Source: Microgenomates bacterium OLB23
Lineage (GTDB): Bacteria > Patescibacteriota > Microgenomatia > UBA1406 > HO2-37-13b
Assembly (NCBI GenBank): GCA_001567245.1
Contig: LMZU01000001.1
Coordinates: 14,235-78,234 of the forward strand
Direction of reading: 5' to 3'
DNA length: 64,000 bases
The notes beneath the pieces were generated by a model that was not told the origin of the DNA, made no database searches, and saw only the letters and a list, made by a program, of their open reading frames with translations. The translations under genes were made by a program, and so were the position numbers. This document shows, one piece after another, positions 4,873 to 40,401 of this stretch. Within the stretch, counting starts at the first letter, position 1. The number at the start of each line of letters is the position of its first letter.

Positions 4873-4918
4873 ATATTACACGATATTATACATGAGTTTC
4901 TACCTATGAGAAAAGGAA

Positions 4919-4952
4919 GCAGCTGGTGGCGGGCACGGGTACCACCAGCTGC
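4919..4952 (-). terminator. intrinsic terminator of cassette gene A
   Basis: 11-bp perfect GC-rich stem (GCAGCTGGTGG / CCACCAGCTGC) followed on the minus strand by TTCCTTTTCTC. Confidence 0.7.
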
Positions 4953-4972
4953 CTTTGCCGCTGCTGCGGCAG

Positions 4973-5146
4973 CTACTCGAGTGTGTAACCCGCGTTTCTT
5001 GCGGCCGTCTCGGCCGCCTCGCGAGTTGGGAACAGGTATGGCTTTGTCCCCTCGATCGGGTTGGGGTTCGTGAGATACCCCTTTCCTCGACCGAGATCGA
5101 CAAGGAAGTATCCTTTATGATCCCTTGATTCTCGGATGTGAACCAT
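4973..5146 (-). CDS. small GC-rich cassette protein A (57 aa), family with F-x5-A-x3-A-x3-G-Y motif
   Basis: Track ORF 4973..5209 trimmed to ATG 5146, which is preceded by AAAGGA (SD). MVHIRESRDHKGYFLVDLGRGKGYLTNPNPIEGTKPYLFPTREAAETAARNAGYTLE. Has its own promoter and terminator. Confidence 0.65.
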   Translation of the reverse strand: MVHIRESRDHKGYFLVDLGRGKGYLTNPNPIEGTKPYLFPTREAAETAARNAGYTLE

Positions 5147-5174
5147 GGTTGAACCCGTCCTTTGTGCCCATAGT

Positions 5175-5203
5175 ATTTTAACATAGGACGGTATATGTGG
5201 CAA
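5175..5203 (-). promoter_or_regulatory. sigma70-type promoter of cassette A (-35 TTGCCA, 17 nt, -10 TAAAAT)
   Basis: rc of 5198-5203 is TTGCCA and rc of 5175-5180 is TAAAAT. The spacing was counted by hand. Confidence 0.55.
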
Positions 5204-5223
5204 GAACACAAATAAGAAAGAAA

Positions 5224-5254
5224 GGCGAGCGGGGAGGGCACGGCCCCGCTCGCC
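5224..5254 (-). terminator. intrinsic terminator of cassette gene B
   Basis: 11-bp perfect stem GGCGAGCGGGG / CCCCGCTCGCC with a 9-nt loop, followed on the minus strand by TTTCTTTCTTATTT. Confidence 0.7.
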
Positions 5255-5257
5255 GAG

Positions 5258-5494
5258 CTACAAAGTGTAGCCATGCAAGGTCGCTTGTAGAGCGGCCTCG
5301 GCTCGTGTGTTGAAAATCTGCTTGAGATCTTCGATGTGGGTTGGTCTGCCGTTATGCTGCATGCATCCGGCCTCTTCGCCGGTGTCTGCATCGTAGAGCA
5401 TAACGTAGAACTCTCCCGTAGTACCACAGACCGTGTACGTATAGTGTTTTGGTTCTGCCACCGACACCACCTTTCTGTGCCCTTCCAGCCTCAT
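5258..5494 (-). CDS. small GC-rich cassette protein B (78 aa), same family
   Basis: Track ORF 5258..5575 starts at a TTG in AT-rich DNA, so I trimmed it to ATG 5494: MRLEGHRKVVSVAEPKHYTYTVCGTTGEFYVMLYDADTGEEAGCMQHNGRPTHIEDLKQIFNTRAEAALQATLHGYTL. No SD; TATAGT/TATAAT abuts the ATG, so it may be leaderless. Confidence 0.6.
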   Translation of the reverse strand: MRLEGHRKVVSVAEPKHYTYTVCGTTGEFYVMLYDADTGEEAGCMQHNGRPTHIEDLKQIFNTRAEAALQATLHGYTL

Positions 5495-5593
5495 TATACT
5501 ATAAGACAAGTAGTTTTTGGCAGTTTGACATTGACCTGTTTCTGGTGTATAGTTAGGGGTAATTAAGGCCCTCAAGCCTTATTTTTTGTGTAT

Positions 5594-19985: not shown

Positions 19986-19992
19986 ATTTGAT

Positions 19993-20015
19993 CCCCGGCG
20001 CCGTAGGCGCCGGGG
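19993..20015. terminator. GC-rich hairpin between convergent tsaD and cassette C (possible bidirectional terminator)
   Basis: CCCCGGCGC-cgtag-GCGCCGGGG, a 9-bp stem. The flanking T-tracts are weak. Confidence 0.45.
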
Positions 20016-20027
20016 TTGTAGCACGGA

Positions 20028-20219
20028 TCATGGCCGAATCGCAATGCTCAGGTTATTTTCCCTGGCATATTGATCGGCCTCAGCTTCCGAGGTAAACTTC
20101 TTGGCACCTTGGAGTCTGTTGGTGATTCCATTGCCCTCCGTCAAGTAGAAGCATCCGAAAATTCCATAGGCTGTCACGAACACGTAGGTAGTTCCAACCT
20201 TAAGAAGTTCGACATTCAT
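20028..20219 (-). CDS. small GC-rich cassette protein C (63 aa), same family
   Basis: Track ORF 20028..20294 trimmed to ATG 20219, which is preceded by AAAGAGG (SD). MNVELLKVGTTYVFVTAYGIFGCFYLTEGNGITNRLQGAKKFTSEAEADQYARENNLSIAIRP. Confidence 0.6.
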   Translation of the reverse strand: MNVELLKVGTTYVFVTAYGIFGCFYLTEGNGITNRLQGAKKFTSEAEADQYARENNLSIAIRP

Positions 20220-20265
20220 TGTGTGCCTCTTTGTTTGGTGCTTCCTACCGGATGTAGGAGTAACA

Positions 20266-20294
20266 AGTATATCAAAATATAACAAAGAAGGCAA
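20266..20294 (-). promoter_or_regulatory. sigma70-type promoter of cassette C (-35 TTGCCT, 17 nt, -10 TATACT)
   Basis: rc of 20289-20294 is TTGCCT and rc of 20266-20271 is TATACT. Confidence 0.55.
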
Positions 20295-22346: not shown

Positions 22347-24305
22347 ATGTTAGGACTACTTGAGAAAAGACGATCATTCAGAAGAAAACCAGGATTTAAA
22401 TTTTCTTTCAATAAAAAAGGCGCAGGTGTTGTGCTTGTAGGCTTGGTAGTGTTTCTTATAGTAGTAGGTGTTATTGGATACTTTGGTGTTTACAAACCTG
22501 CACAGAGCATGAAGGCCAAAGCTGAAGATGTTGCCGCAGCAGGAAAGTTGGTAAATGCGGCATTTAAAGAAAAACGACCTTGAAAAAGTTCAAAAAAGAG
22601 CTTGCTACAACAGAAGCAAAGTTTAATGACTTTAAAAAAGAAGCGCAAAGATTATATTGGATTAAGCCAATACCATTTGTAGGTAATTATGGAAAAGATC
22701 TTAATAATGCAGTCGATGCAGGCGGGTACCTTATTAGTGCCGCAAAAAAAACAATTACTGCAATAGAGCCACATGCCGATTTAATTGGTTTTAAAAAAGG
22801 CACAGACACCTCATTTATAGAAAAACCAGCAGAGCTAAGACTGCAAACAGCAGTACTTACACTTGACTCAATTGTAAAAGACGTAGATGCTATAGCAGAA
22901 GACATTGACCAGGCACGCATTAGAGTTGATCGTATTAATCCAAATAGATACCCAGAAAATTATAAAGGTGTTAAACTCCGCGAAAACATTGAGAAAGGAA
23001 TATCACAATTCGATGGTGTAGCATCGTTATTTGTCGATGCAAAGCCTTTCCTTAAGAACCTGCCCGATTTTCTTGGAGCTAAAGAAGAAAAAACATACCT
23101 TATTATATTTATGAATGACAAAGAACTACGACCAACAGGAGGCTTCATCACAGCATATGCAATATTTAAAGTAAATAAAGGCAAGTTCGAGGTAGTTCGT
23201 TCTGACGACATATATACACTAGATGCATCAATAGCAAAACACCCAAAAGCTCCAGAAAAAAATTCTTGCATATCATAAAGGTGTGAGTCAGTTTTTTATT
23301 CGGGACAGCAATTTATCACCAGATTTTATTGAATCAAATAAGCTATTTGATGAGCTATATCAAAAAAGCAGTCAAAAAGTTGAGTATGACGGCATTATTG
23401 CAATGGATACCTATGTCTTGGTTGATGCGCTCAAAATACTTGGAGACACCCAAGCCAGAGGGGTTAATTTTTCGGCAAACATAGATAAGCGATGCGATTG
23501 TCCGCAAGCAATATATACGCTCTTAAATGAGGTTGATAGACCAGTTGCATATATAAAGGCCGATAGAAAAGGCATTCTTGGCGACCTTCTCTTTGCGGTT
23601 ATGCAAAAAGCTCTTGGCTTTTCTCCTAGCAAATATTGGGGCAGACTTTCTCAAGAAGTACTCATGAAAAACCTTAACGAGAAACACATTCTTATGGACA
23701 TGAAAGATAAAGAAATTCAAAATTCACTAGAAGCACTCAATTTTGCGGGTAGAATTAAATCTAGCGAGGAAAATGTTGATTACCTGCATATTAACGATAC
23801 AAACTTTGCTGGGGCAAAGTCTAACCTTTTTGTAGATCATGAAATTCAGTCTGCCACAGAAATTGCCAACGATGGCACCGTGACACGAAAGCTCACCATA
23901 AACTATAAAAATCCCCATAAGCACTCTAACTGTAGCTTAGAAGAAAGTGAAATATTAGGTGTTGGAGGGCTTTGTATTAATGCTACACTGCGTAACTGGT
24001 TGCGCGTATATGTGCCAGAAGGTAGCAAACTTGTTTCTTTTAATGGATCTGAGAAAAAAACTCTTACCTATGATGACCTAGGAAAAACCGTATTTGAAGG
24101 ATTTTTAGGGGTACAACCTATGGGCAAAGCTACCGTTACCATTGAATATACCTTGCCCTTTAAGGTAGAAAACAAAAATGAATATCGGCTTATTGTGCAA
24201 AAACAGCCTGGAACAGCAGGGCACGAGTTCGCAGCCACGCTTAATGGCAAAAAAATTATTGACTCTAAACTAACCAGAGATCTTTCGTACAGTGGCAAGA
24301 AATAA
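22347..24305 (+). CDS. DUF4012-like membrane-anchored extracytoplasmic protein; two frameshifts
   Basis: Three track ORFs (22347, 22580, 23283) join at A5 22570-22574 and A7 23256-23262. It has an N-terminal TM and a YLIIFMNDKELRPTGGFITAYAIF motif like DUF4012, recalled from memory. Confidence 0.7.
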
Positions 24306-25917: not shown

Positions 25918-27026
25918 GCTAACAGTGTAGTAAATTTACTTTTAAATTTCTTGGTTGAAAACTGCGATAAATGTTTTTTCGCATGTTCACCAAGTGAACG
26001 TCTCATAGCATACTCGTTTTCTTCGTACGAATCAAGTGCTTTTTTAATTGCACTTACAGATTGCGCATCAAAAAATATGCCTGTTGCACCGTGTATAACC
26101 GTCGTAGTTGCACCACCTCGACCAAAGGCAATTACGGGGCATCCGCACGACTGAGCCTCAAGCGAGGTGTAACCAAAGTCTTCTCTTTGCGGCATTATAA
26201 GTGCCTTAGAGGTGGAATAAAGTTCAGCCAGCTGATTGTCGTTGACATTATGCATAAATGTGATGTTTGGTGTAGCGCGGCGGCGCAGTTTTGCACGAAG
26301 TACCCCGTCGCCTACTATGGTAAGTGAGCGCGATGGCATGTTTGCAAATGCGTCGACCACAAGGTCGACGCGCTTATAGGCTACAAGACGAGATACAACT
26401 AAGTATGATTTGAGTTGTTTTGTTTTTTGTAGTGTTCTTGCCTAGGTTGTTACACATGTTTTGCCAGTATGATGTATCAAATGGTGGCAATACAACATTT
26501 TGCTTCTAAGCCGTAATATTTTTTTAATGCGTTGCGCGACCTCTGGAGATACTGCAATCAGCATATCAGGGCGTCGCGCGCCTATGTAATCCCAGTTTCT
26601 GAGGTAATTAATATATGGTCGCATCAGGGTCGATGCAGTGCCATAATCGCGCTGATGCGACCACAAAAAACGCGGTGGTGAAAGAATATATGATACATGC
26701 CGGGTTTCTGGGCGCGTAATAACAGCCTTGGCAAATGCAGAGGTAATAGAAAGAACGTGAGTATACGAACTCAGATTGATTGCTTCAACAGCAAAGGGCA
26801 TAAGCGGCACGCTAAGCACCCTGTTGGCACGAATAAACTCAGGCAGACGATTAATAAATGATGGCTGTATGTCAAACGATTTGGCCCACTGTGCACTTTT
26901 GCGATTGTATACAAGCGTGTACCAATCGGCAGTGGGGTACATAGCAGCAAAAACCTCAAGTACGCGTTCGGCTCCTCCCCATGAATCTATCCAGTCGTAT
27001 ACAATAGCAACTTTTTTATGTTTCAT
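25914..27026 (-). CDS. glycosyltransferase family 4 (GT-B); at least three frameshifts
   Basis: N-terminal ORF 26442..27026 and C-terminal ORF 25914..26360 (EDFGYTSLEAQSCGCPVIAF). The linking segment ...KKYYGLEAK..VVLPPFDTSYW..KSYLVVSRLVAYKRVDLVVDAF can be read across frames. Confidence 0.75.
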
Positions 27027-37468: not shown

Positions 37469-38330
37469 ACGCGCGTTTATATGTGTCGACCAAATATGCG
37501 TTGCCCGACACAATGCCAATGGCAAGCGCTACAGCCGCTTTTAATTGTAGCATATATATAATGAGCCTCTGTTGCAAGGGGGAATAGTGTTTTTTATAGA
37601 AAAAAATATAACCTTGAAATACCTTTATTATAGGTTGGGAACGTGTATTGCTCGATGCAGCCTCTAAATGAATGAAGGTTGCATCGGGGTATACGCCGGT
37701 GGTGAGTTTTTTCTTGGCAGCTCTATACAAAAGGTCAACTTCGTCCCAGTACATAAAAATTGAATTGTCAAATCCGCCAAGAGACGAGAATGTTGCAGCC
37801 TTTGTTATTAGTGCGGCGCCAGACGCCCAGTCTACTTTTTGCGTTTTGCGAACGGGCCAGCGGCTGGCGCCCCAGACATCTCCTTTAAAAAAAAGAGCGG
37901 CTGCTGCAATAAGTGGTGTGTAAAAGCGGCCGCACGATGCTTGTGGAGATTGGTCTTTGTTCACAAGTCGTGCCCCTAAAAAATCAAATTGTTTTTGAGA
38001 TACAAAAAATCTATACAACCGTGGCACGGCATCATTAACTGCTAGAGTATCAGAATTTAAAAACAGCAGGCTGTCTCCCTTGGCAATCATAGCCGCATTG
38101 TTATTGCCTCCAGTAAAACCCAGGTTGTCTTTATGTGCGACAATTCTCACGCGAGAATCTTTAATCTTTGCAAGCATTTTTATGCTTTCATCTTGAGAAT
38201 TGTTGTCCCATACAACGACTTCTGCATTAAGTTTTGCATCATGGTCTAGTGAGGTGAGGATAGAGCAAATACAGTCGTAGGTAATTTGAGCGGTGTTATA
38301 TGAAAGCACAATAATAGAAAGATCCTTCAT
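37446..38330 (-). CDS. glycosyltransferase family 2
   Basis: 294 aa intact, with LSIIVLSYNT...VWDNNSQDES...FLNSD. TATAAT (rc of 38337-38342) lies 6 nt upstream of the ATG. Confidence 0.85.
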   Translation of the reverse strand: MKDLSIIVLSYNTAQITYDCICSILTSLDHDAKLNAEVVVWDNNSQDESIKMLAKIKDSRVRIVAHKDNLGFTGGNNNAAMIAKGDSLLFLNSDTLAVNDAVPRLYRFFVSQKQFDFLGARLVNKDQSPQASCGRFYTPLIAAAALFFKGDVWGASRWPVRKTQKVDWASGAALITKAATFSSLGGFDNSIFMYWDEVDLLYRAAKKKLTTGVYPDATFIHLEAASSNTRSQPIIKVFQGYIFFYKKHYSPLQQRLIIYMLQLKAAVALAIGIVSGNAYLVDTYKRAYEITKKT

Positions 38331-38344
38331 AGCTTAATTATACA

Positions 38345-38373
38345 TTGAAGAATTAAACCTCTGCTATTATACT
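38345..38373 (+). promoter_or_regulatory. sigma70-type promoter of cassette D (-35 TTGAAG, 17 nt, -10 TATACT)
   Basis: TTGAAG 38345-38350 and TATACT 38368-38373. It sits back-to-back with the GT2 -10 box on the other strand. Confidence 0.55.
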
Positions 38374-38397
38374 GTCGCCGAGCGAGAAAGGACACAC

Positions 38398-38601
38398 ATG
38401 CAACCTCAACCCACCTATGCACACATCTATCGCTCGGGTAACGGCTACCGAGTAGATGTGTACGGTTCCAGAGGGCAACCGATGGGTGAACTCAAGAATA
38501 GCAATGGTGGCAAGGATTTTCGCAATTGGGGAATTGCGATGAGAGCTGCACGAGTCGCAGGGCTCGCCAAGCTCCCCCGTCATCTCGGCGGCAGGGGCTA
38601 A
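38398..38601 (+). CDS. small GC-rich cassette protein D (67 aa), same family
   Basis: SD GAAAGGA before ATG 38398. MQPQPTYAHIYRSGNGYRVDVYGSRGQPMGELKNSNGGKDFRNWGIAMRAARVAGLAKLPRHLGGRG. The stop codon lies in the terminator loop. Confidence 0.65.
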   Translation: MQPQPTYAHIYRSGNGYRVDVYGSRGQPMGELKNSNGGKDFRNWGIAMRAARVAGLAKLPRHLGGRG

Positions 38602-38620
38602 GCGTAGCCCCTGCTTTTTT
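38591..38620 (+). terminator. intrinsic terminator 1 of cassette D
   Basis: GCAGGGGCT-aagcgt-AGCCCCTGC followed by T6. Confidence 0.8.
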
Positions 38621-38621
38621 A

Positions 38622-38663
38622 CGAGCCTGCCGCCTCGCTCACCGGCAGGCTCGTTTTCTTTTC
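38622..38663 (+). terminator. intrinsic terminator 2 (tandem) of cassette D
   Basis: CGAGCCTGCCG-cctcgctcac-CGGCAGGCTCG followed by TTTTCTTTTC. Confidence 0.75.
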
Positions 38664-38673
38664 GCAACCTCAA

Positions 38674-38682
38674 TGATATACT
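38674..38682 (+). promoter_or_regulatory. extended -10 promoter of cassette E (TGaTATACT)
   Basis: TG 38674-38675 and TATACT 38677-38682. The -35 is weak (TTTTCT). Confidence 0.5.
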
Positions 38683-38706
38683 ACACATGGGTACAAGGAG
38701 GGTGCA

Positions 38707-38925
38707 ATGTCCAATCGAGACAGGTTTTTCCCAGACAAGTGGTTCATCATTGTCCCCGCAAACGGTTGGTACGAAGTTCATACCTACGCAGGCAGGCGCC
38801 GTGTTGGTGTCATCGAACACAGGGGCAATCCGCTGTTCTCACTTGAGGCTACTGCGCGGGCTGCTGCGGTTGCAGAGGGTTACACAACAGAACGCTTCGA
38901 CACAGATGGTGTCGAAGCGTTCTAA
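38707..38925 (+). CDS. small GC-rich cassette protein E (72 aa), same family
   Basis: SD AAGGAGGG lies 4-5 nt before ATG 38707. MSNRDRFFPDKWFIIVPANGWYEVHTYAGRRRVGVIEHRGNPLFSLEATARAAAVAEGYTTERFDTDGVEAF. Confidence 0.65.
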   Translation: MSNRDRFFPDKWFIIVPANGWYEVHTYAGRRRVGVIEHRGNPLFSLEATARAAAVAEGYTTERFDTDGVEAF

Positions 38926-38943
38926 TCACCAAAATGGTGATAT

Positions 38944-38985
38944 GCCCGGCGGCTATGTACCCACCCGCCGGGCACTTTCTTTACT
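38944..38985 (+). terminator. intrinsic terminator of cassette E
   Basis: GCCCGGCGG (38944-52) pairs with CCGCCGGGC (38965-73), followed by ACTTTCTTTACTT. Confidence 0.6.
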
Positions 38986-39010
38986 TAACCATCTGCTATA
39001 ATTTCTCCAT

Positions 39011-40401
39011 ATGTTAGATGCACAACAAGCTGCCTCTCGATTCTCTATAGACACAATTGCTGCGCTTTTAAAGCGTAGAGGGTTTATATTCCCCTCATCA
39101 GAAATATATGGTGGTTGGGAAGCCGCATACGATTTTGGTCCACTAGGTGCAGAAATTTTGCGCAACATCCGATCATCATGGTGGAAGCACTTTGTGCATA
39201 TGTCTGATCGAAATGTTGGCCTTGATGGAGCGCTCATTTCGCACCCACGAGTATGGGAAGCAAGCGGTCATGTTGAAGCATTTAATGACGTAATGGTAGA
39301 AGACACTGTAACAAAAAAGCGCTACAGAGCCGATCATATAATAGAAGATGCAACTGGCGAAAAAGTAGATGGCATGTCGCCCGAAGAAATAAACAAGCTT
39401 ATTCAGGCTAAACGCATAAAAAGCCCAGATGGCAATGCATTATCAGAAGCAAAAAGATTTAACATTTTAGTAGAAGCACAAGTAGGCACAGTTGCAGATC
39501 AAAAAACAACTGCATATTTGCGCGGCGAAACATGCCAGGCAATTTTTTACAACTTTAAACTAGTTAAAGACAGCATGCGACTCAAACTTCCCTTTGGTAT
39601 TGCACAAGTTGGCAAGGCATTTCGAAATGAAATAAAAAGTTGGTCCATATGTATTCAGAACACGCGAGTTTGAACAAATGGAACTAGAAGTATTCTTAAA
39701 AAGAAGATGAGGCTATGCAAAAGTATGAAGATCTTAAAGAAGAAAGTGTAGCCTGGCTTAAAAGCATAGGGATAGATACATCTAAATTACGCTTTCGCGA
39801 TCAAGAGTTTAAAGAAAGAGCGCACTATAATAAAGTTGCCACAGATCTTGAATATGAGTTTCCATTTGGATGGAAGGAGTTTCAGGGTATTCATTACCGT
39901 GGAGATTGGGATTTAAAGCGACATAGTGAGTTTTCTGGCGAAGACCTATCATATCGTGATGACGAAACGGGTGCCTTATTTATCCCTCATGTTACAGAAT
40001 ACTCCATTGGTCTCAATCGACTTCTTCTTGTTATTGTGTGTGATGCTTATCACCAAGATGATAAGAGAACATATCTTAAATTACATCCCCATATTGCGCC
40101 CTATAAGGTTGCGGTCTTTCCTCTTGTGCGCAACAAAGAAGAACTAACAAATAAAGCACGCACTGTTTTTACCGATCTAAAGCAGCTTGGGTATTATGTG
40201 GCGTGGGATGATCGTGGCAATATAGGCAAGCGCTACCTATCTCAAGACGAAATCGGCACGCCGCTTTGTGTTACGATAGATTATCAAACGCTAGAAGATA
40301 ACACTGTCACTGTGCGCAATCGTGACACAATGGTGCAAGAGCGTGTAAAACTTGATACACTAAATCAGTACATTACAACTTTCATTACAAATTACGCGTA
40401 A
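39011..40401 (+). CDS. glyQS: glycyl-tRNA synthetase (alpha2 dimeric type); two frameshifts in assembly
   Basis: ORFs 39011..39673 and 39715..40401. Reading A5 39634-39638 and A5 39698-39702 each as A4 restores ...[44 protein letters not shown]... TATAAT 38997-39002 lies 8 nt before the ATG. Confidence 0.9.

What the first reader, a model, noticed from the sequence alone, without database searches (positions are those of the whole stretch)
38345..38990. Two further cassettes (D, E) with tandem terminators inserted between the glycan locus and glyS
The third GC-rich island holds D (67 aa) and E (72 aa) on the plus strand.
- D: promoter TTGAAG-17-TATACT, SD GAAAGGA, and two consecutive strong terminators (38591-38620 with T6; 38622-38663). 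Its stop codon sits in the loop of the first.
- E: extended -10 TGaTATACT, SD AAGGAGGG, and terminator 38944-38985.

Three of the five cassettes (C, D and E) use the same -10 hexamer, TATACT, whereas the resident genes I inspected use TATAAT. E contains VPANGWYEV, which is close to the GW-x-V start of DUF2188-type domains as I remember them. The strong insulation, with a double terminator before E and a terminator before glyS, looks designed to avoid read-through into essential genes. The long antisense ORFs listed here are GC-driven artefacts.
Basis: partly seen in the sequence, partly recalled or inferred. Interest (0 to 1): 0.7.

Follow-up and report, generated by a model that had tools for sequence, protein, structure and literature searches.

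The report
Self-contained small-protein gene cassettes, self-pairing mRNAs
Two unannotated 67- and 72-residue protein genes, each with its own promoter and terminator, sit in a variable spot in front of the glycyl-tRNA synthetase gene of a tiny-genome (CPR) bacterium; the protein family is new, and the start of each transcript looks built to pair with the loop of its own terminator.

Summary
Window 38345-38990 is a 55% GC island in a 39% GC genome (Microgenomates bacterium OLB23). It holds two intact small ORFs, D (38398-38601) and E (38707-38925), each with a -10 box, a Shine-Dalgarno (SD) sequence and a strong GC-rich terminator hairpin.

- **Coding:** orthologues in six independent assemblies keep the frames. 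Length differences are multiples of 3, third-position changes dominate, and pN (0.30-0.46) is below pS (0.65-0.80).
- **Family:** D, E and cassettes A, B and C elsewhere in the window are paralogues with one predicted beta-beta-beta-alpha fold (pLDDT 77-80). Pfam, NCBIfam, PHROGs, PADLOC, PDB and phage searches found no relative. The DUF2188 idea is not supported.
- **Site:** occupancy varies between relatives: D+E, D plus another paralogue, D only, E only, a deletion scar, or empty.
- **New finding:** the terminator hairpins are about 90% conserved, against about 60% for the coding sequence. In 10 of 12 cassettes a hexamer just 5' of the SD is complementary to the loop of that cassette's own terminator. 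In the nine tabulated, 4 of 6 pairs show compensatory changes.

Most likely these are autonomous accessory small-protein units whose mRNAs close 5' to 3'. The protein function is unknown. No transcript data were available.

The parts
38345..38373 (+). D promoter: TTGAAG (38345-38350), 17-nt spacer, TATACT (38368-38373). An overlapping alternative is TGCTATTAT at 38362-38370.
   Evidence: TATACT is invariant in the D orthologues of L004, L019 and L022.
38380..38386 (+). D 5'UTR segment GAGCGAG, at about the predicted transcript start and abutting the SD. It is complementary to the D2 loop CTCGCTC.
   Evidence: (I3). Orthologues carry GAGCGT with loop ACGCTC, a compensatory change.
38386..38392 (+). 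D Shine-Dalgarno GAAAGGA, 5 nt before the ATG.
   Evidence: A purine tract is kept in the orthologues.
38398..38601 (+). D coding sequence, 67 aa. Predicted fold beta-beta-beta-alpha with a conserved C-terminal LPxxLGG(R/K) tail.
   Evidence: pLDDT 79.8, pTM 0.64. Four orthologues of 62-70 aa have length differences in multiples of 3, third-position changes in excess, and pN 0.30-0.46 against pS 0.65-0.80.
38591..38620 (+). Hairpin D1 (10-bp stem, loop AGCG) plus T6. The D stop codon lies at the stem top.
   Evidence: (I9). Not conserved in L004, L019 or L022.
38621..38664 (+). Hairpin D2 (12-bp stem, loop CCTCGCTCAC at 38633-38642) plus tail TTTTCTTTTC. The loop part 38634-38640 is complementary to the 5'UTR.
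   Evidence: (I4). It is 89-100% identical among four orthologues, against 60% for the CDS.
38674..38682 (+). E promoter, extended -10 TGATATACT.
   Evidence: L018 has TGATAAAAT at the same place.
38688..38695 (+). E 5'UTR segment TGGGTACA (core GGGTAC 38689-38694), directly 5' of the SD. It is complementary to the E terminator loop.
   Evidence: (P = 0.0026). GGGTAC/GTACCC is kept in L018.
38695..38701 (+). E Shine-Dalgarno AAGGAGG.
38707..38925 (+). E coding sequence, 72 aa. Predicted fold beta-beta-beta-(beta)-alpha-beta.
   Evidence: pLDDT 77, pTM 0.63. Orthologues are in L002 and L018 (41-54% aa identity; pN 0.38-0.43 against pS 0.80-0.82).
38889..38923 (+). 15-bp perfect palindrome (5-nt loop) in the last codons of E, ending at the stop codon.
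   Evidence: (I2). Absent in L002 and L018, where the C-terminus differs.
38925..38941 (+). 7-bp hairpin ATCACCA-AAA-TGGTGAT in the E 3'UTR.
   Evidence: L002 has GCCACCA...TGGTGGC, with compensatory changes in the outer two pairs. L018 has TCACCA-GCA-TGGTGG, where one outer pair becomes U-G.
38943..38985 (+). E terminator: 10-bp stem TGCCCGGCGG/CCGCCGGGCA, loop CTATGTACCCAC (GTACCC 38957-38962), tail CTTTCTTTAC.
   Evidence: (I10). It is 90% identical in L018 and L002. The same hairpin type follows A' in L007.
38994..39013 (+). Resident glyS promoter TGCTATAAT (38994-39002) and glyS ATG (39011). There is no SD, so the mRNA is probably leaderless. Together with 38353-38370 it forms an 18-nt direct repeat flanking the island.
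   Evidence: (D1). The empty site in L003 and L023 has a single TTTGCTATAAT.
4905..5500 (-). Paralogous cassettes B (CDS 5261-5467) and A (CDS 4976-5146), upstream of tRNA-Glu. Both pair 5'UTR GGGCAC with loop GTGCCC.
   Evidence: Orthologues are in L007 and L026.
19990..20275 (-). Paralogous cassette C (CDS 20031-20219; -10 TGATATACT), downstream of tRNA-Met. Its terminator loop is only 3 nt, and no 5'/loop pairing is seen.

Best explanation
D and E are two real, unannotated protein-coding genes. They belong to a lineage-restricted family of 57-72 aa proteins with a three-stranded sheet packed on one helix.

**Transcription units.** Each gene is an autonomous monocistronic unit. It has an extended -10 type promoter, a 5'UTR of about 20-35 nt, a strong SD, the ORF, and a GC-rich hairpin with a pyrimidine-rich tail.

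**Location.** The units lie in the GT2|glyS spacer. In this clade that spacer is a hot spot for dispensable genes, and cassettes are gained, swapped and deleted one at a time.

**Proposed mechanism (inferred).**
- Transcription starts a few nucleotides after the -10 box.
- The first 6-8 transcribed nucleotides directly abut the SD.
- They pair with the 3' half of the loop of the cassette's own terminator hairpin.
- The finished mRNA therefore closes on itself through a 5'-end/terminator-loop kissing contact.

By analogy with hok, aapA1, hbs and icaR, this would shield the 5' end from RNase J/Y-type decay, or control ribosome access to the adjacent SD, or both. The result would be a compact, stable, self-insulated expression unit.

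Selection for a tightly folded mRNA would also explain why GC, including GC3, stays high in a low-GC genome.

**Protein function (inferred).** The proteins themselves are most likely non-enzymatic binding or regulatory proteins. Only core and turn residues are conserved, and the surfaces evolve fast.

**Shown:** the ORFs, their conservation, the hairpins, the complementarity with covariation, and the presence/absence polymorphism.

**Inferred:** the transcript ends, the RNA-level pairing and its effect, and the protein function.
For: **Coding**
- Frames are kept in window, L004, L019 and L022 (D) and in window, L002 and L018 (E), with ATG, GTG or TTG starts behind SDs.
- CDS lengths differ by multiples of 3.
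- Differences at codon positions 1/2/3 are for example 19/25/36 and 20/21/47.
- pN is 0.30-0.46 and pS is 0.65-0.82.

**Family**
- One motif and one HMM find exactly the five cassette ORFs in all six frames of the window.
- AlphaFold gives the same beta-beta-beta-alpha topology for D and E, with pLDDT 80 and 77.

**Autonomy and variability**
- Occupancy of the site: window D+E; L004 D plus another paralogue; L019 and L022 D only; L018 and L002 E only; L003 and L023 empty.
- L024 is a scar with the D promoter, 5'UTR and 9 codons, left by a deletion between the 9-bp repeats AGTACCGCA.
- More distant relatives have the site empty (L028) or filled with an RHH/YafQ-type toxin-antitoxin pair plus two other genes (L030, L031).

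**RNA feature**
- Hairpin identity is 0.93 (D2) and 0.90 (E). CDS identity is 0.60 and 0.56. glyS is 0.73-0.82.
- The cognate 5'UTR/loop complement is 6-8 nt, with per-cassette shuffle P of 0.003-0.1.
- The exact complement of the loop hexamer occurs once per roughly 300-nt cassette and always in the 5'UTR.
- On nine cassettes the 6-bp helix has 54 of 54 cells paired, and 4 of 6 pairs have changes on both sides (13 cells). No slid register comes close.
- In L007, A' (GGGCAT/ATGCCC) and B' (GGGCGT/GCGCCC) each changed together with their own loop.
- The whole D and E transcripts fold better than shuffles, with z = -5.6 and -4.0.
- GC3 is 0.48-0.68 in cassettes and 0.31-0.38 in resident genes, and it is maintained in orthologues although pS is saturated.

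**Precedents for 5'/3' pairing in bacterial mRNAs:** PMC5737220 (hbs), PMC3868564 (icaR), PMC5416894 (aapA1).
Against: - There are no transcript data, so the TSS and 3' ends are predictions.
- I found the complementarity post hoc and chose the register of alignment A10 myself. Few independent lineages are available: 2-4 orthologues per type and 4 paralogue types.
- Two cassettes lack the feature (C in the window, E2 in L004).
- Complementarity alone cannot tell an RNA contact from a DNA inverted repeat. In D the complementarity extends into nucleotides that are probably upstream of the TSS (CTGTCG/CGGCAG).
- The MFE folds instead pair the SD region with the U/C tail, which is an alternative 5'/3' closure.
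- Protein function has no homology or structural support. The best Foldseek PDB E-value is 0.3. BFVD gives E = 0.016 to uncharacterised phage proteins.
- High GC could also reflect repeated import rather than selection on folding.
Confidence: 0.55

Rival explanations
1. Mobile DNA cassette. The hexamer/loop complementarity and the conserved hairpins are DNA-level signals: an inverted repeat or hairpin recognised by a recombinase or transposase acting in trans. The TGCTATA direct repeats are a target-site duplication or an att-like core. The proteins are cargo.
For: - Cassettes are present or absent one at a time at the same site, and a different paralogue sits in the E slot of L004.
- An 18-nt direct repeat flanks the island (D1). 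TGCTATA occurs at both junctions in window, L004 and L022, and once in the empty site.
- The same hairpin type follows different paralogues: E in the window, A' in L007.
- Other cassettes lie next to tRNA genes.
- Contigs break at the site in three assemblies.
- In D the complementarity is a 15-nt imperfect inverted repeat that reaches the -10 box (I3).
Against: - TGCTATAAT is simply the extended -10 consensus of the resident promoter, so the 'duplication' may be two promoters.
- There are no terminal inverted repeats at the unit ends.
- No integrase or transposase lies in the window near the islands or in the related loci.
- The islands are syntenic across lineages whose synonymous sites are saturated. 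They are therefore old residents, not recent hoppers.
- The observed loss (L024) is a plain microhomology deletion.
- One pair is U-G on the sense strand.
Confidence: 0.2
2. Latent toxic-gene design, like a type I toxin-antitoxin system. The cassettes encode growth-inhibiting small proteins. Their full-length mRNAs are kept stable but untranslatable by 5'/3' fold-back, as in hok and aapA1, and are activated by processing.
For: - They are small unannotated ORFs, multi-copy, strain-variable, and have their own promoter and terminator.
- The mRNAs are compact and strongly folded.
- The 5'-terminal segment next to the SD pairs with the 3' end.
- The same spacer holds a classical toxin-antitoxin pair in L030 and L031.
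- The principle is documented for aapA1 (PMC5416894).
Against: - The proteins are soluble alpha/beta domains, not hydrophobic peptides.
- No conserved antisense promoter was found. The only minus-strand TG-extended box, at 38500-38495, has no counterpart at the matching position of the L004 D gene, judged by reading the sequences.
- There are no PADLOC or toxin-family hits.
- Strong SDs are not themselves sequestered by the hexamer pairing.
Confidence: 0.1
3. Remote members of a known small beta3-alpha domain family, acting like those families. Candidates are DUF2188, YegP/DUF1508, or the HicB/UPF0150 antitoxin-like fold.
For: - The secondary-structure order is the same, and the motif G-aromatic-x-V ... 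F-x-T-x-x-E-A-x-x-x-A is reminiscent of them.
- The weak BFVD matches include one DUF1508 protein (E = 0.11, TM 0.52) and one HicB-like protein (E = 0.3).
- The top PDB matches are RNase H-like beta3-alpha units (uS11, RNase H, YqgF) at E = 0.4-1.
Against: - No Pfam hit at E<=10 for 11 members.
- hhalign of the family profile against the verified YegP sequence gives a probability of 0.6%.
- A profile search of PDB sequences finds nothing.
- No HicA-like or other partner gene is adjacent.
Confidence: 0.1
4. GC-rich structured non-coding RNAs, or an assembly artefact. The ORFs would be fortuitous products of high GC.
For: - GC-rich intergenic islands in AT-rich genomes are a classic ncRNA signature.
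- The folding z-scores are strong.
- The hairpins are more conserved than the ORFs.
- The ORFs were not called in the GenBank record. This is inferred from the consecutive accessions KXK12269/12270.
Against: - There are no Rfam hits.
- A codon-position substitution pattern, 3n indels, pN below pS, conserved SD plus start, and a confident shared fold all point to coding.
- The island is present in seven independent assemblies from different samples, so it is not a chimera.
- The antisense ORF is not conserved.
Confidence: 0.04

Closest known systems
hok/Sok and aapA1/IsoA1 type I toxin mRNAs (5'-3' fold-back or long-distance interaction; aapA1: PMC5416894; hok from my own knowledge)
   Same: - Short, usually unannotated ORFs with their own promoter and terminator.
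- Multi-copy and strain-variable.
- A compactly folded mRNA whose extreme 5' end pairs with its 3' end close to the ribosome-binding region.
   Different: - Here the partner is the loop of the terminator hairpin (a kissing contact), not a 3' single strand.
- The proteins are soluble 57-72 aa alpha/beta domains, not membrane peptides.
- No antisense RNA was found.
- Toxicity is untested.
5'/3'-UTR pairing in B. subtilis hbs (PMC5737220) and S. aureus icaR (PMC3868564)
   Same: An intramolecular 5'UTR-3'UTR duplex in a short monocistronic mRNA for a small protein. In hbs it modulates RNase Y cleavage in the 5'UTR, which gives RNase J1 access. In icaR it acts at the SD to control translation.
   Different: - Those are single genes with 14-bp (hbs) or anti-SD (icaR) duplexes.
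- Here a 6-8-nt contact recurs, with covariation, across a whole paralogous family, and it involves the terminator loop.
- There is no experimental support here.
DUF2188, YegP/DUF1508 and HicB-like small beta-beta-beta-alpha domains
   Same: Similar size, the same order of secondary-structure elements, and an aromatic-rich hairpin followed by an Ala-rich helix.
   Different: - No sequence or profile similarity was detectable.
- Foldseek matches are not significant.
- There is no tandem-domain or toxin-partner context.
Integron gene cassettes and MITE-like intergenic elements
   Same: Small modular units that come and go one at a time at a fixed site. Each ends in a conserved imperfect palindrome.
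   Different: - Each unit brings its own promoter and SD.
- There is no integrase and no attI/attC architecture.
- There are no terminal inverted repeats.
- The units are syntenic over long divergence.

Membership tests
   hmmscan of D, E and nine other family members at E<=10 gave no DUF2188 hit.
YegP / DUF1508 (UPF0339) | Profile or sequence similarity to the YegP repeat | tested here: not met
   - No Pfam hit.
- hhalign of the family alignment A5 against E. coli YegP gave probability 0.6%. The YegP sequence was verified against PDB 2K8E.
- Only one weak BFVD structural match (E = 0.11).
HicB-type antitoxin (type II toxin-antitoxin) | HicB/UPF0150 profile match and an adjacent HicA toxin gene | tested here: not met
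   - No Pfam, NCBIfam or PADLOC hit.
- The neighbours are GT2, glyS, tRNAs, greA and tsaD.
- The fold resemblance is generic only.
Intrinsic (Rho-independent) terminator | GC-rich stem-loop followed directly by a U-rich tract at the 3' end of a transcription unit | tested here: met
   - D1 has 10 bp plus T6. D2 has 12 bp plus TTTTCTTTTC. E has 10 bp plus CTTTCTTTAC.
- The D2 and E tails are interrupted by C.
- Actual termination was not measured.
Bacterial mRNAs with a functional 5'/3' end interaction (hok, aapA1, hbs, icaR) | Conserved complementarity between the 5' leader and the 3' end, supported by covariation | tested here: met
   - Cognate complements of 6-8 nt occur in 10 of 12 cassettes.
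- 54 of 54 cells are paired, and 4 of 6 pairs carry compensatory changes.
- The register was fitted by me.
Bacterial mRNAs with a functional 5'/3' end interaction (hok, aapA1, hbs, icaR) | A demonstrated effect of the pairing on mRNA stability or translation | not testable with these tools
   Needs transcript mapping, structure probing and mutagenesis.
Type I toxin-antitoxin locus | Small toxic (usually hydrophobic) peptide plus a cis- or trans-encoded antisense RNA | tested here: not met
   - The proteins are predicted to be soluble alpha/beta.
- No conserved antisense promoter: the only minus-strand candidate has no counterpart when the L004 D sequence is read.
- Toxicity is untested.
Known structured RNA families (Rfam 15) | Covariance-model match at or near the gathering score | tested here: not met
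   Only three tRNAs in the window reach gathering score. In 38250-39100 the best hits have E = 1.5-3.9, far below gathering.
Transposable element, integron cassette or MITE | Terminal inverted repeats or an attC site, a target-site duplication, and an associated transposase or integrase | tested here: inconclusive
   - Direct repeats of TGCTATA (18 nt at 83% in the window) flank the island.
- They coincide with the promoter consensus.
- No terminal inverted repeats and no recombinase gene in any fetched locus.

The most novel reading that the evidence does not exclude
A clade of CPR bacteria (Microgenomates/Woesebacteria relatives) carries a family of portable, self-insulated expression cassettes. 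Their mRNAs are closed by a conserved kissing contact between the 5'-terminal nucleotides and the loop of their own terminator. This would be a family-wide 'closed-loop' bacterial mRNA architecture. It keeps the units GC-rich and could hold the transcripts stable or latent, as in hok, while they encode a previously unseen, fast-evolving small-protein fold family.
Probability: 0.35. Interest if true: 0.75.

Novelty: new variant of a known kind. Interest (0 to 1): 0.6.

Why it matters
**If the coding reading alone holds**
- These are unannotated genes in a 0.9-Mb genome, where every retained gene is informative.
- They define a protein family with no detectable relative in current family libraries. 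Only two matches, both B-type, pass E<=0.001 among 1.84 billion representative proteins.
- This is a concrete example of what gene callers miss in CPR genomes when composition differs from the host genome.

**If the RNA reading holds**
- It would be the first case I know of in which a 5'-end/terminator-loop contact is conserved, with covariation, across a whole paralogous gene family rather than in a single mRNA.
- It gives a directly testable model for how bacteria that largely lack canonical terminators and SD-led genes run a few strongly expressed, insulated units.
- It also offers a natural design for compact, stable expression cassettes.

**Wider context**
- The variable occupancy of the GT2|glyS spacer marks an accessory-gene hot spot in these reduced genomes. 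States seen are D, E, both, a scar, empty, or a toxin-antitoxin pair.

Tried and rejected
**Homology of D and E**
- Pfam, PHROGs, NCBIfam and PADLOC found nothing significant.
- The word-indexed search of 5.8 billion proteins with E found no candidate at all, not even itself. The exact look-up shows D, E, A, B and C are not in the collection, although GT2 and both GlyRS halves are.
- The exhaustive profile search of 1.84 billion representatives gave only two true hits, both B-type, plus one leucine-rich-repeat false positive.
- tblastn of D and E against 50,697 phage records found no match.
- IMG/VR scans with D-type and E-type patterns found no relative. The full 11-sequence family alignment was too divergent for that tool.

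**Structure**
- Foldseek of both models against PDB gave no hit below E = 0.3.
- Foldseek of the E model against BFVD gave only weak matches to uncharacterised phage proteins.
- A profile search against PDB sequences found nothing.

**RNA and DNA patterns**
- Rfam found only tRNAs.
- The E-type hairpin pattern in IMG/VR gave 10 hits, all in 62-71% GC contigs with no family ORF. I rejected them as chance.

**Other rejected leads**
- The extended -10 motif TGCTATAAT is not over-represented in the window (2 found, 1.35 expected), so I could not show that it is a genome-wide promoter consensus.
- The marginal sixth HMM hit (window 23526-23723, E = 0.038) is antisense to a 340-aa gene and was rejected.
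- An antisense (Sok-like) promoter: the only candidate, at 38500-38495, has no counterpart when the L004 D sequence is read.
- The 71-aa gene next to GT2 in L030 is a ribbon-helix-helix antitoxin and is unrelated to the family.
- BLASTP of D against E shows no pairwise similarity. The family link rests on the shared motif, the HMM and the predicted fold.
- Literature searches for OLB23, and for GC-rich small-protein cassettes in Patescibacteria, found nothing relevant.
Full report
**1. What is there**

The window is a contig of Microgenomates bacterium OLB23, a CPR bacterium. The flanking proteins are KXK12269.1 (GT2) and KXK12270.1/KXK12271.1 (two halves of GlyRS). The consecutive accession numbers imply that nothing was annotated between GT2 and glyS. 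This is an inference.

The genome is about 39% GC, and 38400-39000 is 54-56% GC. On the + strand lie D (38398..38601, 67 aa) and E (38707..38925, 72 aa).

- TTGAAG, 17 nt, TATACT, then SD GAAAGGA for D.
- TGATATACT, then SD AAGGAGG for E.

The hairpins fold as proposed. The D 3' region gives z = -5.9 and the E 3' region gives z = -10.7 against dinucleotide shuffles.

A generic promoter scan is not above chance. However, the only -10-like boxes on the + strand of the whole spacer are those of D, E and glyS. Six of the seven perfect GC-rich hairpins in the 64-kb window are cassette terminators.

**2. Are D and E genes?**

Related loci were fetched in two ways:
- through GlyRS;
- through GT2 homologues.

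D orthologues are in L004, L019 and L022. E orthologues are in L002 and L018. The evidence for coding is as follows.
- All orthologues keep an open frame behind an SD, with ATG, GTG or TTG starts.
- CDS lengths are 186, 201, 210 and 210 nt for D, and 207 and 216 nt for E. They differ by multiples of three.
- Third codon positions carry 1.5-2 times more differences than first or second positions.
- pN is 0.30-0.46 and pS is 0.65-0.82, which is saturated.
- The long antisense ORF is not conserved.
- The island occurs in seven independent assemblies, so it is not a chimera.

I regard protein coding as established at about 0.9.

**3. A family**

Three further GC islands or sub-islands hold A (4976-5146, minus strand), B (5261-5467, minus strand) and C (20031-20219, minus strand). 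A and B lie beside tRNA-Glu. C lies beside tRNA-Met.

- All five share a hairpin G-aromatic-x-V...Y, an NG-x-P turn, and F-x5-A-x3-A-x3-G-Y.
- That motif occurs exactly five times in the six-frame translation.
- An HMM of 11 members finds only the known members among 1,989 ORFs.
- B and A orthologues sit in the same greA...tRNA-Glu context in L007 and L026.
- AlphaFold gives beta-beta-beta-alpha(-beta) for both E (pLDDT 77, pTM 0.63) and D (pLDDT 80, pTM 0.64) from only five sequences.

**4. No known relatives**

- Pfam, PHROGs, NCBIfam and PADLOC give nothing.
- PDB sequence profiles give nothing.
- Foldseek against PDB has a best E-value of 0.3, to generic RNase H-like beta3-alpha units such as uS11.
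- BFVD gives E>=0.016, to uncharacterised small phage proteins.
- Phage genomes and IMG/VR give nothing.
- Among 1.84 billion representative proteins, only two B-type sequences pass E<=0.001.
- The look-alike YegP/DUF1508 domain fails hhalign, with probability 0.6%.
- Only core and turn residues are conserved, and orthologues are 41-58% identical. GlyRS is about 80% identical over the same comparisons. This suggests a fast-evolving, non-enzymatic binding protein. That is inference.

**5. The site is variable**

Occupancy of the GT2|glyS spacer:

| Locus | Content |
|---|---|
| window | D + E |
| L004 | D + a different paralogue with a D-like LPxHL tail |
| L019, L022 | D only |
| L018, L002 | E only |
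| L003 (complete 938-kb chromosome), L023 | empty, about 50 bp |
| L024 | scar |

- The L024 scar keeps the D promoter, 5'UTR and nine codons. They are fused to the pre-glyS sequence by a deletion between the 9-bp repeats AGTACCGCA that are present in L019.
- In more distant relatives the spacer is empty (L028). In L030 and L031 it holds an RHH/YafQ-type toxin-antitoxin pair plus two other genes.
- Three contigs break exactly here.
- The spacer is therefore an accessory-gene hot spot, and the cassettes are dispensable modules.
- The island is flanked by an 18-nt direct repeat (83% identical) ending in TGCTAT. The empty site has one copy, inside the extended -10 box TGCTATAAT of glyS.
- This could be a target duplication or just two similar promoters. 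I could not decide. TGCTATAAT itself is not over-represented in the window.

**6. The unexpected part**

The terminator hairpins, loops included, are far more conserved than the genes they follow. Nucleotide identities:

| Element | Identity |
|---|---|
| D2 hairpin | 0.93 |
| D 5'UTR | 0.76 |
| D CDS | 0.60 |
| D spacer | 0.54 |
| E hairpin | 0.90 |
| E CDS | 0.56 |
| glyS | 0.73-0.82 |

D1 with its T6 run is specific to this genome.

In each cassette a hexamer lies 0-3 nt 5' of the SD. In D, E and A it starts 5-6 nt after the -10 box, which is at the predicted transcript start. This hexamer is complementary to the 3' part of the loop of that cassette's own terminator:

| Cassette | 5'UTR segment | Loop segment |
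|---|---|---|
| D, window | GAGCGAG | CTCGCTC |
| D, L004, L019, L022 | GAGCGT | ACGCTC |
| E, window and L018 | GGGTAC | GTACCC |
| A, window | GGGCAC (and ACGGGT) | tACCCGTGCCC |
| A', L007 | TGGGCAT | ATGCCCA |
| B, window and L026 | AGGGCAC | GTGCCCT |
| B', L007 | GGGCGT | GCGCCC |

Statistical support:
- Per-cassette shuffle P is 0.003-0.1, and cognate pairs score highest in the cross-matrix.
- The exact complement of the loop hexamer occurs once per roughly 300-nt unit and always in the 5'UTR. The expectation is about 0.05 per unit anywhere.
- On nine cassettes the 6-bp helix is paired in 54 of 54 cells. Four of six pairs show changes on both sides (13 cells). All slid registers collapse.
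- The stems also show compensatory changes, in B (GGCGAGC, GGTGAGC, ATGAGC) and in the 7-bp E hairpin.

Caveats:
- I chose the register.
- The number of independent lineages is small.
- C and the L004 E-slot paralogue lack the feature.
- DNA-level inverted repeats would give the same pattern.

**7. Mechanism proposed**

Each unit makes a short monocistronic mRNA. Its 5'-terminal nucleotides kiss the loop of its own terminator. By analogy with hbs (PMC5737220), icaR (PMC3868564) and aapA1 (PMC5416894), and with hok from my own knowledge, this would stabilise the mRNA, or gate the adjacent SD, or both.

Selection for a compact fold would explain two further observations:
- the whole-transcript z-scores of -5.6 and -4.0;
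- the persistently high GC3 (0.48-0.68, against 0.31-0.38 in resident genes) in orthologues whose synonymous sites are saturated.

All of this is inference. No transcript data were available.

**8. Verdict**

- The DUF2188 link is not supported.
- The 'designed double terminator' is a genome-specific detail.
- The conserved feature is a hairpin whose loop covaries with the 5'UTR.
- The protein family is new, and its function is unknown.
- I rate it as a new variant of known kinds (accessory small-protein genes; 5'/3' mRNA interactions), with interest 0.6.

Noticed in passing
window 39011-40401: glyS is split into two ORFs (39011..39673 and 39715..40401) by two frame changes at A-runs (about 39640 GAAATAAAAAG and about 39695 CTTAAAAAGAAG). 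The piece between them (VGPYVFRTREFEQMELEVF) is intact in a third frame. All relatives have one GlyRS gene of 452-462 aa (called genes); ORF listings from the first in-frame start give 472-484 aa. These are most likely homopolymer sequencing errors rather than a pseudogene.
   Followed up: partly
window 4905-5500 (-) and 19990-20275 (-): Three more cassettes of the same family: B and A upstream of tRNA-Glu, and C downstream of tRNA-Met. None is in the protein collection under the sequences tested. B and A are syntenic in L007 and L026.
   Followed up: partly
window 38889-38923: A 15-bp perfect palindrome forms the last codons of E (ERFDTDGVEAF*). It is absent from the L002 and L018 orthologues, which end GVEDDN* and GVQDDE*. 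It looks like a recent hairpin-templated conversion that rewrote the C-terminus and added a third strong stem-loop.
   Followed up: partly
window 38994-39013 and 38330-38342; L003 9950-10001: The resident genes glyS and GT2 appear leaderless. TATAAT ends 8 nt (glyS) and 6 nt (GT2) before the start codon, and there is no SD. All cassettes have strong SDs and 5'UTRs of about 20-45 nt, which is a second way in which they differ from their host genome.
   Followed up: no
whole window: Perfect GC-rich hairpins (stem >=9 bp, GC >=0.6, loop 3-15 nt) occur at only 7 sites in 64 kb. Six are cassette terminators, and the seventh is at 26350-26371. The resident genes seem to lack canonical intrinsic terminators.
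   Followed up: partly
L024 2000-2150; L019 55-63 and about 366-374: L024 is a natural deletion derivative of an L019-like D cassette. The promoter, 5'UTR and first nine codons are joined to the pre-glyS sequence at the 9-bp direct repeat AGTACCGCA. Cassette loss by microhomology deletion has been caught in the act.
   Followed up: yes
L030 2457-2931, L031 2321-2795: In relatives whose GT2 is about 53% identical, the same GT2|glyS spacer holds a ribbon-helix-helix antitoxin (71 aa), a YafQ/HigB-like toxin (85 aa) and two further genes (266 and 273 aa). The spacer is a recurrent landing site for accessory genes.
   Followed up: partly
L001, L003, L004 (CAZTOA010000091.1, OZ246401.1, CAZTFB010000001.1): These records are titled 'uncultured Gammaproteobacteria bacterium'. 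However, they share 79-85% GlyRS identity and gene order with the Microgenomates/Woesebacteria window. OZ246401.1 is a 938-kb chromosome. The titles look like taxonomic mislabels.
   Followed up: no
L001 1-60, L019 1, L025 1-19: Three short metagenomic contigs end exactly in the GT2|glyS spacer. L019 starts at the D -10 box. This is consistent with strain-level heterogeneity at this site breaking the assemblies.
   Followed up: no
L007 2419-2448 compared with window 38945-38972: The hairpin CCCGGCGG-N-CCCACCCGCCGGG that follows E in the window, L002 and L018 also follows the A-type gene in L007. The window's own A has a different stem. Terminator modules therefore appear to be exchanged or inherited independently of the ORF type.
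   Followed up: partly
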